Shown here: positions 40,215-41,345 of the stretch, piece by piece
Position numbering within the stretch: position 1 is the stretch's first letter
Layout: the number at the start of each line of letters is the position of its first letter
Position numbers and translations under genes: made by a program
Source: the human T2T-CHM13v2.0 reference genome, Homo sapiens
Direction: 5' to 3' (one strand)
DNA length: 64,000 bases
NCBI RefSeq assembly: GCF_009914755.1
Contig: NC_060929.1
The notes under the pieces: model-generated
Databases searched by the model: none
Seen by the model: only the letters and a program-made list of their open reading frames with translations
Told to the model about the DNA's origin: nothing

Positions 40215-41345
40215 CAGGGTAATTAATGTTTCTGTGCCACAGACCTTTCAGCATCTGGTGAAGCCCGTGGACCCCTTTGAGAGTAATGTTTTTAAAAGGC
40301 TAAAATAAAATAGGTTTCTTAGGAAACCAATGACATTGGCTATGAAAATGTATAAAGTAATAAATTTGTGATATAGTAATATATATTGTGGGGGAAAGAA
40401 AGAGAGATCAGACTGTTACTGTGTCTATGTATAAAGAAGTAGACATAAGAAACTCCATTTTGTTCATCTTGCGAGTCGATGGTGCTCGATTGCGGTGTTT
40501 CCATCTCCGCGGAGGCGCTTTTCTTTGCATCTCTGATGGGTTCATTGTAGAACTTCAAATGTCTAATGGGTATCCAAACAGAAGCTGATTTTCTACTGGT
40601 GAAACACAAGCAAAACCTCTCCCCCACATTACCACCTTCCCTATTTCCCATGTTTTATTTTTGTTGTCTTTCCACCAGATCAGTTTTCCTTCATGTGGAC
40701 TGTTCTTTTTACCAGTAAGATGTTGTTCTGCAGAGGTAGTAGTCTGATTTCTATAAATGTTTAAAAATTTAAAGTATAGAGTGCCAGATTAAGTTGCATC
40801 TGAGGAGTGGTACACTCCTTACTGTCTCCCCCTTCTTTTTGTTTAACCAATTGAGTTTTGAGTGTTCTATTAGTTCTTTCAAGTATGGCCTGTCCTTGGG
40901 AATTATATGGAATTCCTCTTGTATGTGTAATTTTCCACTGATTTAAGAATTTTTGGAATGCTTTACTACAGTATCCTGGTCCATTGTCAGTTTTAATTTT
41001 TTCTGGAACTCCCATTACAGCAAAACAAGATAATTAATGTTTTTTAACATGGGAAGTACTTTCTCCTGTCTGGCAAGTTGCCCATATGAAATGTGAATAA
41101 GTATCAACTGTTATATGGACACATGATAATCTGATCTCCCTTTCTTTCCCCCACAATATATGTTTATTAATGCCTACCTGTAACTTCTATGGGTAAAAAT
41201 GTCATAATACTGTTAATTCTTCTGTGAGTAGTGACCTATACTATAATTGAAATATATGCTAAATTTCAGCAAGTTGTTAGGGAAAATGGTGATGTTATTA
41301 TTTTCCCCATCTCAGATCATGCATACCCTGAATTCTATCCATCAT
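40215..41345 (+). mobile_element. hAT-Charlie (Charlie4-like) remnant hosting the HERV-K mini-element
   Basis: TCTGGTGAAGCCCGTGGACCCCTT...TAATGTTTTTAAA; sequence resumes after 41161. Confidence 0.55.
40387..41155 (-). mobile_element. Aberrant HERV-K(HML-2) insertion: LTR5 U3 start (+), integrase C-half to env/rec start (-), LTR5 U3 start (-)
   Basis: TGTGGGGGAAAGAAAGRGAGATCAGA inverted at both ends; [24 protein letters not shown] integrase core on -; env start [14 protein letters not shown] on -; TSD ATATAT at 40381-40386 and 41156-41161. Confidence 0.95.

What the first reader, a model, noticed from the sequence alone, without database searches (positions are those of the whole stretch)
40381..41161. 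769-bp HERV-K mini-element with two inverted U3 ends and a 6-bp TSD: a retroviral insertion shaped like a MITE
Seen: the element starts TG at 40387 and ends CA at 41155. Its termini are 26-bp inverted repeats (40387-40412, 41130-41155; one mismatch), flanked by ATATAT on both sides. The left arm is 79 bp of LTR5 U3; the interior is antisense integrase C-half through the env/rec start (type 2-like sequence). There is no R/U5, PBS, PPT or poly-A. Known: proviruses have direct LTRs (U3...U5 ends), HML-2 integrase makes ~6-bp TSDs and needs CA-3' att ends, and L1-mediated copies carry poly-A and longer TSDs. Inference: an aberrant reverse transcript with two U3 att ends was integrated by the viral integrase. 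Both ends share the same G5 variant, suggesting one parental virus. If other copies exist it would be a non-autonomous TIR-like family; more likely it is a single fossil of aberrant reverse transcription.
Basis: partly seen in the sequence, partly recalled or inferred. Interest (0 to 1): 0.85.

Follow-up and report, generated by a model that had tools for sequence, protein, structure and literature searches.

The report
Retroviral fossil with two U3 ends
A 769-base scrap of the endogenous retrovirus HERV-K sits in human chromosome 5 with the same viral end at both tips, most likely a botched reverse transcript pasted in by the viral integrase; similar oddities exist elsewhere in the genome and at least one is already in print.

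Summary
Window 40387-41155 starts TG and ends CA. It has 26-nt inverted termini with one mismatch and ATATAT on both sides. It consists of HML-2 U3 1-78, then antisense provirus 6540->5861 (integrase to the first 30 env/rec codons, type 2), then antisense U3 26->1. The exact structure is single-copy, so it is not a transposing family.

It is not unique in kind, however. Pattern scans of the same genome found five loci where a U3 arm ending at position 78 is joined to antisense sequence:
- this element;
- the listed provirus 1q21.3, which has the identical U3-78/env-6540 junction but a normal U5 end (TSD CTCAGC);
- HERV-K124/4q32.1 (TSD GTTCTT);
- a 485-bp element on chr2 whose core is only Alu (TSD TGGAAC);
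- a 1.3-kb element on chr12.

Four of the five have U3 at both ends.

Best reading: a short plus-strand U3 DNA misprimed on sense RNA, and the product acquired two U3 ends. Integrase then inserted it with a 6-bp duplication.

K124's inverted 78-bp LTR pieces were published in 2013. A 2002 paper that I could not read describes a transposon-like ERV element. I therefore class this as a new member of a known kind. The recurrent 78-nt arm is the interesting part.

The parts
40381..40386 (.). left copy of the 6-bp target-site duplication ATATAT
   Evidence: Paralogs of the flanking old repeat show a single short AT run here.
40387..40464 (+). left arm: HML-2 LTR U3 positions 1-78, sense; begins TG
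   Evidence: 91% identity to U3 1-78 of the reference provirus. It belongs to a minority 'G5' LTR subgroup.
40455..40465 (.). junction A microhomology CCATTTTGTT(C), shared by U3 69-78(79) and antisense env 6540-6531
   Evidence: The same junction occurs in provirus 1q21.3.
40455..41132 (-). interior: provirus 5861-6540 read on the minus strand (integrase core from mid-rve, integrase C-terminal domain, pol-env overlap, type-2 sequence)
   Evidence: 94.6% identity over 680 nt. Pfam: rve on 40761-41033 is above its curated cutoff (38.1 vs 32.6 bits). rve on 41034-41186 (17.1 bits) and IN_DBD_C (19.1 vs 21 bits) are below theirs. Type-1 copies match only from element base 108.
40455..40545 (-). 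first 30 codons of env/rec (ATG at 40545-40543)
41130..41132 (.). junction B: 3-nt microhomology (AGA on the sense strand of the virus) between U3 24-26 and integrase 5861
   Evidence: This junction is unique in the genome: 1 of 40 scored, 63 candidates.
41130..41155 (-). right arm: U3 positions 26->1 in inverted orientation; ends CA
   Evidence: There is one mismatch to the left arm.
41156..41161 (.). right copy of the 6-bp target-site duplication ATATAT

Best explanation
The element is a dead-end product of HML-2 reverse transcription that ended up with the U3 attachment end at both termini. The viral integrase inserted it in one concerted step, duplicating 6 bp of host DNA. It encodes nothing usable and cannot copy itself.

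Proposed path:
1. Plus-strand DNA primed at the polypurine tract copies the first 78 nt of U3 (shown: the arm is U3 1-78).
2. Its 3' end (...CCATTTTGTT) leaves the minus-strand template and anneals to the complementary stretch at env 6531-6540 on a sense template, most likely the co-packaged genomic RNA. It is then extended as a minus-sense cDNA. This step is inferred from the 10-11-nt microhomology, from the antisense polarity of every partner, and from a sister element whose partner is Alu sequence.
3. The misprimed strand behaves like a normal minus strand. It reaches the PBS and pairs with plus-strand strong-stop DNA, and both strands are completed. This gives [5' LTR ... env 6540][inverted U3 78->1], with U3 position 1 at both ends. 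The step is inferred; this is exactly the architecture of K124 and of the chr12 element.
4. Provirus 27-5860 was lost at a 3-nt microhomology, either by a further jump or fold-back during reverse transcription or by a later host deletion (undecided).
5. Integrase processed the two U3 ends and joined them 6 bp apart (shown: TG...CA ends and ATATAT on both sides).

The insertion is old. Its terminal branch is 0.023 substitutions per site. With half of the 0.24-0.45 %/My LTR-pair rate used by Subramanian et al., that gives at most about 10-19 My.
For: Termini and duplication.
- Both termini are exact U3 starts and the flanks are 6-bp repeats.
- Host continuity across the site: the left flank belongs to an old repeat. 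Its 4 paralogs read GTAAT, then a single AT run of 2-6 nt, then GT... Two of the 4 continue significantly into the right-flank sequence (p 0.0075 and 0.03; the other two 0.096 and 0.75).
- No other HML-2 DNA lies in the 64 kb.
- Both arms carry the minority G5 start: 15 exact places against 533 within one mismatch.

Recurrence.
- The U3-78/env-6540 junction recurs in provirus 1q21.3. It spans in 2 of 40 scored hits out of 239 candidates (structure).
- 1q21.3 sits in an Alu with TSD CTCAGC.
- Its second junction also lies at an 11-nt inverted microhomology, AGAACAAATTT.

Independent origin of the two loci.
- They are not sisters in a 40-row tree.
- Forcing them together costs 17.1 lnL (AU p 0.059).
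- They share no exclusive substitution.
- Their U3 arms belong to different LTR subgroups.

Three further loci have a U3 arm ending at 78 joined to antisense sequence.
- K124/4q32.1: 5' LTR to gag 2320, then inverted U3 78->1, twice; perfect TSD GTTCTT.
- chr2:10242209-10242693: U3 1-78 plus antisense Alu, with 126-128-nt terminal inverted repeats and perfect TSD TGGAAC.
- chr12:107790231-107791533: U3 1-78, then antisense 1243->1.

Support for a primer model.
- In the two homeologous junctions (K124 and chr2) the U3 version of the stretch is kept up to base 78. That is what a primer with a fixed 3' end would leave.
- Only 2 inverted-repeat pairs of 10 nt or more in the reference provirus involve U3 1-150, and one of them is 69/6531.

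Literature.
- Retroviral TSDs are usually 4-6 bp, and a chimpanzee HML-2 provirus in that paper has 6-bp direct repeats (PMC4422153, passages).
- Internal inversions and asymmetric LTRs arising during reverse transcription are documented for HIV-1 proviruses (PMC9278108, passages).
Against: - ATATAT is a palindrome and a simple repeat. It is therefore weaker evidence for a direct duplication than the TSDs of K124 and the chr2 element, and it is equally compatible with 6 nt of inverted flank.
- No orthologous empty site could be examined.
- The paralog test is modest: 2 of 4 significant, at about 70% identity.
- Junction B has only 3 nt of microhomology and may be an ordinary host deletion.
- The AU test on independent origin is borderline (p 0.059).
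- Nothing explains why the arm ends at 78. The minus-strand template and the 78-mer show no unusual predicted structure (z -0.03, 0.84 and 0.61).
- 1q21.3, taken alone, could also be made after integration by an inversion plus a deletion, because its outer ends are conventional.
- The chr12 flanks match only as AAT(T/A)T.
- The pattern scans are incomplete. They use an exact 16-nt anchor and two of ten possible position pairs, and nine LTR-like rows were judged by eye only.
Confidence: 0.72

Rival explanations
1. Two-molecule integration. One intasome captured the U3 ends of two separate viral DNAs. The distal ends were then trimmed and joined by host microhomology-mediated end joining, leaving U3 1-78 joined to a piece of the second molecule.
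For: This also gives U3 at both ends and a 6-bp duplication. Both internal junctions show microhomology.
Against: The same U3-78/env-6540 junction occurs in 1q21.3, whose outer ends are a normal U3/U5 pair. The U3 arm ends at 78 in five independent loci with four different partners. That is not expected from random breakage and end joining. The chr2 element's partner is Alu sequence, and its 126-128-nt terminal inverted repeat is best explained by self-copying of one strand.
Confidence: 0.1
2. Post-integration rearrangement. A conventional provirus or solo LTR was later inverted, folded back and deleted by host replication or repair. The ATATAT on both sides is then coincidence or part of an inverted duplication.
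For: ATATAT is palindromic, and the inverted repeat formally extends to 35 nt at 94%. Host-level inversion of an LTR start does occur. At chr1:160.5 Mb the first 77 nt of an LTR5 lie inverted 1.3 kb away among Alus, beside an Alu inserted at U3 64-77. 1q21.3 alone could be explained this way.
Against: A conventional provirus has a U5 end on one side. To place U3 position 1 exactly against host DNA on both sides needs a breakpoint at the virus-host border. Beyond the palindrome the flanks are not inverted copies. Paralogs indicate that the host sequence is continuous across the site with one AT run. K124 and the chr2 element show the same end architecture with non-palindromic perfect TSDs.
Confidence: 0.08
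3. A non-autonomous, TIR-bearing mobile family (MITE-like) that integrase or a transposase moved repeatedly.
For: It has terminal inverted repeats and a TSD. Several loci share a U3 1-78 arm.
Against: The full structure and junction B are single-copy. The five loci have different interiors, different second ends and different LTR subgroups, and the two with the same junction are not sisters. They are independent accidents, not copies of one another. No route exists to regenerate such DNA from a transcript: there is no R, PBS or PPT.
Confidence: 0.02

Closest known systems
HERV-K124 / HML-2 4q32.1 (Shin et al. 2013, PMC3625200: abstract, section 5 and table passages read; listed as 4q32.1 in Subramanian et al. 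2011, PMC3228705)
   Same: It has a U3 start at both ends, an inverted U3 arm of exactly 78 nt joined to antisense-polarity viral sequence, and a 6-bp TSD (GTTCTT; my).
   Different: K124 keeps a whole 5' LTR plus leader and gag up to 2320. Its partner site is gag rather than env, and the gag-plus-arm unit is present twice. It is young: its arms are 100% identical to the LTR5Hs reference. The authors called the pieces 'truncated and inverted LTRs' and speculated on 'LTR inversion and template switching'. In the passages I read they did not interpret it as a U3/U3 integration.
[quoted passage not shown]
   Same: By its title, and by the way Shin et al. cite it (a mechanism for LTR inversion in HERV-K), it describes the same kind of object: a retrovirus-derived element shaped like a DNA transposon.
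   Different: Unknown. I could not read it, so I cannot say whether it is this chr5 locus, one of the other four, or another. Two searches for text describing it found nothing.
HML-2 provirus 1q21.3 (Subramanian et al. 2011 Table 1)
   Same: It has the identical U3-78/antisense-env-6540 junction and a 6-bp TSD.
   Different: Its other end is a complete 3' LTR (a U5 end). Its interior runs 6540->4747 antisense, then 8231->9471 sense. It belongs to a different LTR subgroup. The passages I saw list it as a (-) provirus without an age. [quoted passage not shown] In my mapping its interior is 95.5% identical to the HML-2 reference, but inverted relative to its LTR.
Defective HIV-1 proviruses with internal inversions or asymmetric LTRs (PMC9278108, passages)
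   Same: These are integrated products of template-switching errors during reverse transcription.
   Different: In the passages read, the reported cases keep a U3 end and a U5 end. No case with two U3 ends was mentioned.
MITEs and other cut-and-paste DNA transposons
   Same: They share terminal inverted repeats ending in TG...CA-type termini, a short fixed-length TSD, and a DDE-type enzyme doing the joining (general knowledge).
   Different: There is no copy family, no excision and no transposase source. The TIRs are retroviral att ends made by reverse transcription.

Membership tests
HERV-K (HML-2) | LTR5-type LTR sequence and HML-2 pol/env sequence | tested here: met
   U3 1-78 at 91% and provirus 5861-6540 at 94.6% to a natural HML-2 provirus. 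In the tree of 40 genomic copies the interior falls inside a 31-row group supported 98/93, though in no starred set of up to half the rows.
HERV-K (HML-2) | type 2 (292-bp pol-env stretch present) | tested here: met
   15 of 40 genomic hits (type 1) match only from element base 108. The element carries 39 nt more.
Conventional provirus or solo LTR | direct LTRs, or one LTR running U3-R-U5, with PBS/PPT in a provirus | tested here: not met
   Only U3 1-78 and inverted U3 1-26 are present. There is no R, U5, PBS or PPT.
Integrase-mediated retroviral insertion | TG...CA termini at LTR ends | tested here: met
   TG at 40387 and CA at 41155, both at U3 position 1.
Integrase-mediated retroviral insertion | 4-6-bp target-site duplication (6 bp in the HML-2 examples seen) | tested here: met
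   ATATAT on both sides. Chance is about 0.0003 at local composition. The paralog empty-site-like evidence is modest. The repeat is a palindrome, and the ortholog was not testable.
Integrase-mediated retroviral insertion | one U3 end and one U5 end | tested here: not met
   Both ends are U3. This is the anomaly.
Class of HML-2 elements with a U3(1-78) arm joined to antisense sequence (K124-like) | U3 arm ending at position 78, partner in antisense polarity, (micro)homology to U3 about 62-78 at the junction | tested here: met
   Window element, 1q21.3, K124, chr2, chr12.
MITE / DNA transposon family | multiple copies with the same TIRs and interior | tested here: not met
   Only one genomic place spans the whole element or junction B.
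L1-mediated processed copy | poly-A tail, long (7-20 bp) TSD, L1 endonuclease-type target | tested here: not met
   No poly-A, a 6-bp TSD, and ends at U3 position 1.

The most novel reading that the evidence does not exclude
HML-2 reverse-transcription complexes repeatedly produced a discrete 78-nt plus-strand U3 DNA. This happened in at least three LTR lineages, from more than about 15 My ago to a young LTR5Hs element. The 78-mer misprimed on sense RNAs in the particle, either the viral genome at env, gag or leader sites, or an Alu transcript. The products carried U3 att ends on both sides and were inserted by integrase as transposon-shaped elements. One of them has no viral interior at all. 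That would be a natural case of a retroviral integrase mobilising non-viral cDNA between two identical att ends. It would also be a specific, testable weak point of HML-2 plus-strand synthesis at U3 78. One unsupported idea for the cause is an RNase H-resistant purine-rich RNA left just downstream.
Probability: 0.35. Interest if true: 0.65.

Novelty: new member of a known kind. Interest (0 to 1): 0.5.

Why it matters
Taken alone, the locus is a curiosity: a fossil showing that the HML-2 integrase accepted two U3 ends in the germ line. Its value grows with the four companion loci.

- Together they point to one recurrent error of HML-2 reverse transcription with a fixed breakpoint at U3 78, seen in old and young lineages.
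- One product carries only Alu sequence between viral ends. That bears on the old idea of a link between retroviral integration and DNA transposition.

There is also a practical point. Provirus 1q21.3 is one of the two HML-2 loci expressed in 53 of 54 tissues (PMC9578601, passages). Its pol segment is inverted relative to its LTR. This matters for strand-aware expression analyses and explains why it looks 'divergent' in alignments.

Tried and rejected
- **Family idea.** Whole-element, left-junction and right-junction searches of the own genome found no second copy.
- **Common descent of the chr5 and 1q21.3 elements.** The tree, the AU test, the shared-substitution count and the U3 subgroup comparison all lean against it, but the AU p is 0.059.
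- **Empty site from paralogs.** The right-flank paralogs (L029-L031) begin 20 nt after the insertion and gave nothing. The left-flank paralogs gave modest support.
- **Genome-wide scan for inward-facing U3 starts.** The U3-start 26-mer has 844+940 matches within 3 mismatches and only 100 are listed, so this was not feasible. I used junction patterns instead.
  - These are incomplete. Six hits had no HML-2 context (L080-L082, L084, L085, L087).
  - Two were ordinary LTRs with small changes (L083, L086).
  - Seven of the nine rows fetched had no HML-2 context, and L095 had only 22 nt.
  - Nine LTR-like rows were judged from the matched text only.
- **A third 'break at about 77'.** At chr1:160.5 Mb this turned out to be an Alu insertion plus a host-level inversion, unrelated to the class.
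- **Template hairpin or special fold as the cause of a stop at U3 78.** No signal.
- **Hughes and Coffin 2002.** It is not held, and no citing text describes it. Two broader searches for U3/U3 or inverted-LTR proviruses gave nothing pertinent. One search failed on a two-letter term.

Full report
**What is there**

The sequence reads ...GTAAT ATATAT | TGTGGGGG ... CCCCCACA | ATATAT GTTT.... The element is 40387-41155, 769 bp. The repeat finder reports the terminal inverted repeat (I1). The clean arms are 26 nt with one mismatch. The formal extension to 35 nt exists only because ATATAT is its own reverse complement.

As a ruler I fetched a natural HML-2 provirus from the same genome (L024). Against it, the element maps as follows:
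- U3 1-78 in sense orientation (91%);
- provirus 6540->5861 in antisense orientation (94.6% over 680 nt);
- U3 26->1 in antisense orientation.

There is no R, U5, PBS, PPT or poly-A. The rest of the 64-kb window holds no other HML-2 DNA.

On the minus strand, Pfam finds rve above its curated cutoff on one ORF (40761-41033, 38.1 vs 32.6 bits). It gives sub-threshold matches to rve on 41034-41186 (17.1 bits) and to the integrase C-terminal DNA-binding domain (19.1 vs 21 bits). The env/rec start codon lies at 40545-40543, 30 codons before the junction.

The source virus was type 2. In one search, 15 of 40 scored genomic matches begin only at element base 108 (type 1), while 23 begin at 69 or 70. 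One refinement: the last 10-11 nt of the left arm (CCATTTTGTT, plus C) are shared with antisense env, so junction A is a microhomology.

**Copy number**

Only the locus itself spans the whole element (40 scored of 1122 candidates). Only the locus itself spans the right junction (1 of 40 scored, 63 candidates). It is not a family.

The left junction is found a second time, at chr1:149756845 of this assembly (2 of 40 scored, 239 candidates). That locus is the listed provirus 1q21.3 (Subramanian et al. 2011, Table 1 passage).

Its structure is U3 1-78 sense, then 6540->4747 antisense, then 8231->9471 sense (the end of env plus a complete 3' LTR). It lies inside an Alu with a perfect 6-bp duplication, CTCAGC. 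Its second junction also lies at an 11-nt inverted microhomology.

**Are the chr5 and 1q21.3 elements copies of one another?**

Four results lean against it.
- In a maximum-likelihood tree of 40 genomic copies of the 680-nt interior they are not sisters.
- Forcing them together costs 17.1 log-likelihood units, with AU p 0.059. That is borderline, not decisive.
- All six non-majority states they share are also present in at least seven other copies, so they have no exclusive shared substitution.
- Their U3 arms differ at positions that are diagnostic of LTR subgroups.
  - The chr5 arms carry the minority 'G5' start (15 exact places in the genome against 533 within one mismatch).
  - They also carry two further variants seen in 13 of the 14 other G5 LTR starts I fetched.
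  - The 1q21.3 arm matches its own 3' LTR type.

I therefore read the shared junction as recurrent, not inherited.

**A class, not a singleton**

A paper search led to Shin et al. 2013 (PMC3625200; abstract, section 5 and table passages read). Their human-specific HERV-K124 is tabulated as a 968-bp LTR, 1171 bp internal, 78 bp reversed LTR, 206 bp internal, and 78 bp reversed LTR.

I located K124 in this assembly with a two-arm pattern and mapped it. It consists of a 5' LTR and leader/gag to 2320, inverted U3 78->1, gag 2101->2320 again, and inverted U3 78->1. It is flanked by a perfect, non-palindromic GTTCTT on both sides. So K124 is a clean second case of an HML-2 insertion with U3 at both ends.

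I then scanned the genome for the inner end of the U3 arm followed by non-LTR bases. One search gave 11 matches, one search gave 6, and one search gave 25 (against 87 for its control, so mostly chance). After I fetched the candidates, five loci carry a U3(1-78) arm joined to antisense sequence:
- the window element;
- 1q21.3;
- K124;
- a new 485-bp element at chr2:10242209-10242693;
- a new 1303-bp element at chr12:107790231-107791533.

The chr2 element has TGGAAC on both sides and 126-128-nt terminal inverted repeats (U3 1-78 plus 50 nt of antisense Alu). Its interior is Alu-like only. I recognised the Alu partly from its similarity to the Alu beside the reference provirus and partly from recall.

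The chr12 element is U3 1-78 followed by antisense 1243->1, that is leader plus a whole 5' LTR. Its flanks match only as AAT(T/A)T.

Four of the five loci have U3 at both ends. The remaining pattern hits were ordinary LTRs with small changes (L083, L086), an Alu-disrupted LTR (see below), or places without HML-2 context. Nine LTR-like rows were judged from their matched text only. The scans need an exact 16-nt anchor and tested only some base combinations, so the count of five is a lower bound.

**Mechanism**

Every partner is antisense to the U3 arm, so the arm was extended on a sense template. One partner is Alu sequence. Within a reverse-transcription complex such a template would be RNA (inference).

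In the two junctions where the partner is only homeologous to U3 62-78 (K124 gag and the chr2 Alu), the U3 version is retained up to base 78 and the partner starts right after. That is what a primer with a fixed 3' end leaves behind. It is not what a partner strand landing on U3 would leave.

In the reference provirus only two inverted-repeat pairs of 10 nt or more involve U3 1-150, and one is 69/6531. Reuse of env 6540 by two independent events is therefore not surprising.

The simplest model needs one error. A 78-nt plus-strand U3 DNA misprimes on genomic RNA at site X. The resulting minus-sense strand then reaches the PBS and completes the normal second strand transfer with plus-strand strong-stop DNA. 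This yields [5' LTR ... X][inverted U3 78->1]. That is the exact architecture of the chr12 element (X = 1243) and of K124 (X = 2320, with a repeat).

The window element is the same thing with X = env 6540, plus the loss of 27-5860 at a 3-nt microhomology. That loss may have been a further jump or fold-back during reverse transcription, or a later host deletion. I cannot tell which. Integrase then joined two U3 ends 6 bp apart.

Retroviral TSDs are usually 4-6 bp, and a chimpanzee HML-2 provirus described in the same paper has 6-bp direct repeats (PMC4422153, passages).

Steps shown:
- the anatomy of the element;
- the termini;
- the duplications;
- the recurrence of the arm.

Steps inferred:
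- the identity of the primer;
- the RNA nature of the templates;
- the order of events.

Why the arm ends at 78 is unexplained. Folding of the template and of the 78-mer shows nothing unusual.

**The target-site duplication of the window element**

ATATAT is a weak witness because it is palindromic and simple. Chance at local composition is about 0.0003.

The left flank belongs to an old repeat at roughly 70% identity. All four paralogs read GTAAT (or GTGAT), then one AT run of 2-6 nt, then GT... Two of the four continue significantly into the right-flank sequence (p 0.0075 and 0.03; the others 0.096 and 0.75).

This supports a continuous host site with a single AT run. It argues against models that need host deletion or two independent insertions. 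It is no substitute for the orthologous empty site, which I could not examine.

**Age**

The terminal branch of the chr5 interior is 0.023, and 9 of 678 sites are private. I used half of the 0.24-0.45 %/My LTR-pair rate of Subramanian et al. (passage). This gives at most about 10-19 My from the branch and about 6-11 My from the private sites. It is a rough estimate and untested in apes.

**What is known**

The kind is in print, at least in part. K124's inverted 78-bp LTR pieces were published in 2013. [quoted passage not shown]

That paper is not held, and no text describing it was found. It may describe this very locus or one of the others. Its content could change my novelty call in either direction, towards 'already known'.

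Internal inversions and asymmetric LTRs formed during reverse transcription are documented for HIV-1 proviruses (PMC9278108, passages).

I did not find the following in the papers I could search:
- the fixed 78-nt arm across five loci;
- the Alu-cored element;
- the inverted structure of 1q21.3.

**Verdict**

The element is a single-copy fossil belonging to a small recurrent class of aberrant HML-2 integrants.

- Novelty: new member of a known kind.
- Interest: 0.5. The locus alone is a curiosity. The recurrent 78-nt arm and the Alu-cored sister are worth a specialist's look.

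Noticed in passing
L011 1001-4087 (G000:C1:149756845-149759931), the listed HML-2 provirus 1q21.3: Its pol/env segment (6540->4747) is inverted relative to its own 3' LTR and to a 78-nt U3 arm at the other end. 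The TSD is CTCAGC inside an Alu. The passages I read list it as a (-) provirus, and a 2025 compilation calls it divergent, 'possibly a close relative of HML-2'. Yet its interior is 95.5% identical to the HML-2 reference. It is reported as expressed in 53 of 54 tissues, so its mixed strandedness matters for RNA-seq reading.
   Followed up: yes
L079 810-1294 (G000:C2:10242209-10242693): This 485-bp element has U3 1-78 at both ends in inverted orientation, 126-128-nt terminal inverted repeats that run on into antisense Alu, an Alu-only interior, and a perfect TSD TGGAAC. It looks like a retroviral-integrase insertion of Alu cDNA between two U3 ends.
   Followed up: partly
L097 1571-2873 (G000:C12:107790231-107791533): This 1.3-kb old element has U3 1-78 joined to antisense leader plus a whole antisense 5' LTR (1243->1), so it has U3 at both ends. 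The flanks match only as AAT(T/A)T.
   Followed up: partly
L077/L078 (G000:C4:164009164-164011665 approx.), HERV-K124 / 4q32.1: It has a perfect TSD GTTCTT and two tandem units of [gag 2101/…-2320 + inverted U3 78->1]. The first inverted arm is followed by two bases that fit both the PPT side of U3 and gag 2101-2102. Subramanian et al. give chimpanzee as the oldest common ancestor, while Shin et al. call it human-specific.
   Followed up: partly
L076 (G000:C1:160544500-160550500): This is an LTR5 of the G5 subgroup with an Alu inserted at U3 64-77, which duplicates about 12 nt. Its first 77 nt lie inverted 1.3 kb away among Alus. It is a host-level rearrangement that mimics the 78-nt arm by coincidence of a T-rich site.
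   Followed up: partly
window 40087-40386 and 41175-41340: The element sits at or near the boundary of two old interspersed repeats. The left flank has weak paralogs (68-72% for four of the six, 79% and 82% over shorter stretches for the other two) that end within 0-4 nt of the insertion point. The right flank has different paralogs that start about 20 nt after it. The families were not identified.
   Followed up: partly
reference provirus L024 (provirus coordinates 69-78 and 6531-6540): A 10-nt perfect inverted repeat lies between U3 and the start of env. It is one of 63 such pairs of 10 nt or more in the provirus, but one of only two that involve the first 150 nt of U3. Whether it has any role in the normal virus is unknown.
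   Followed up: no
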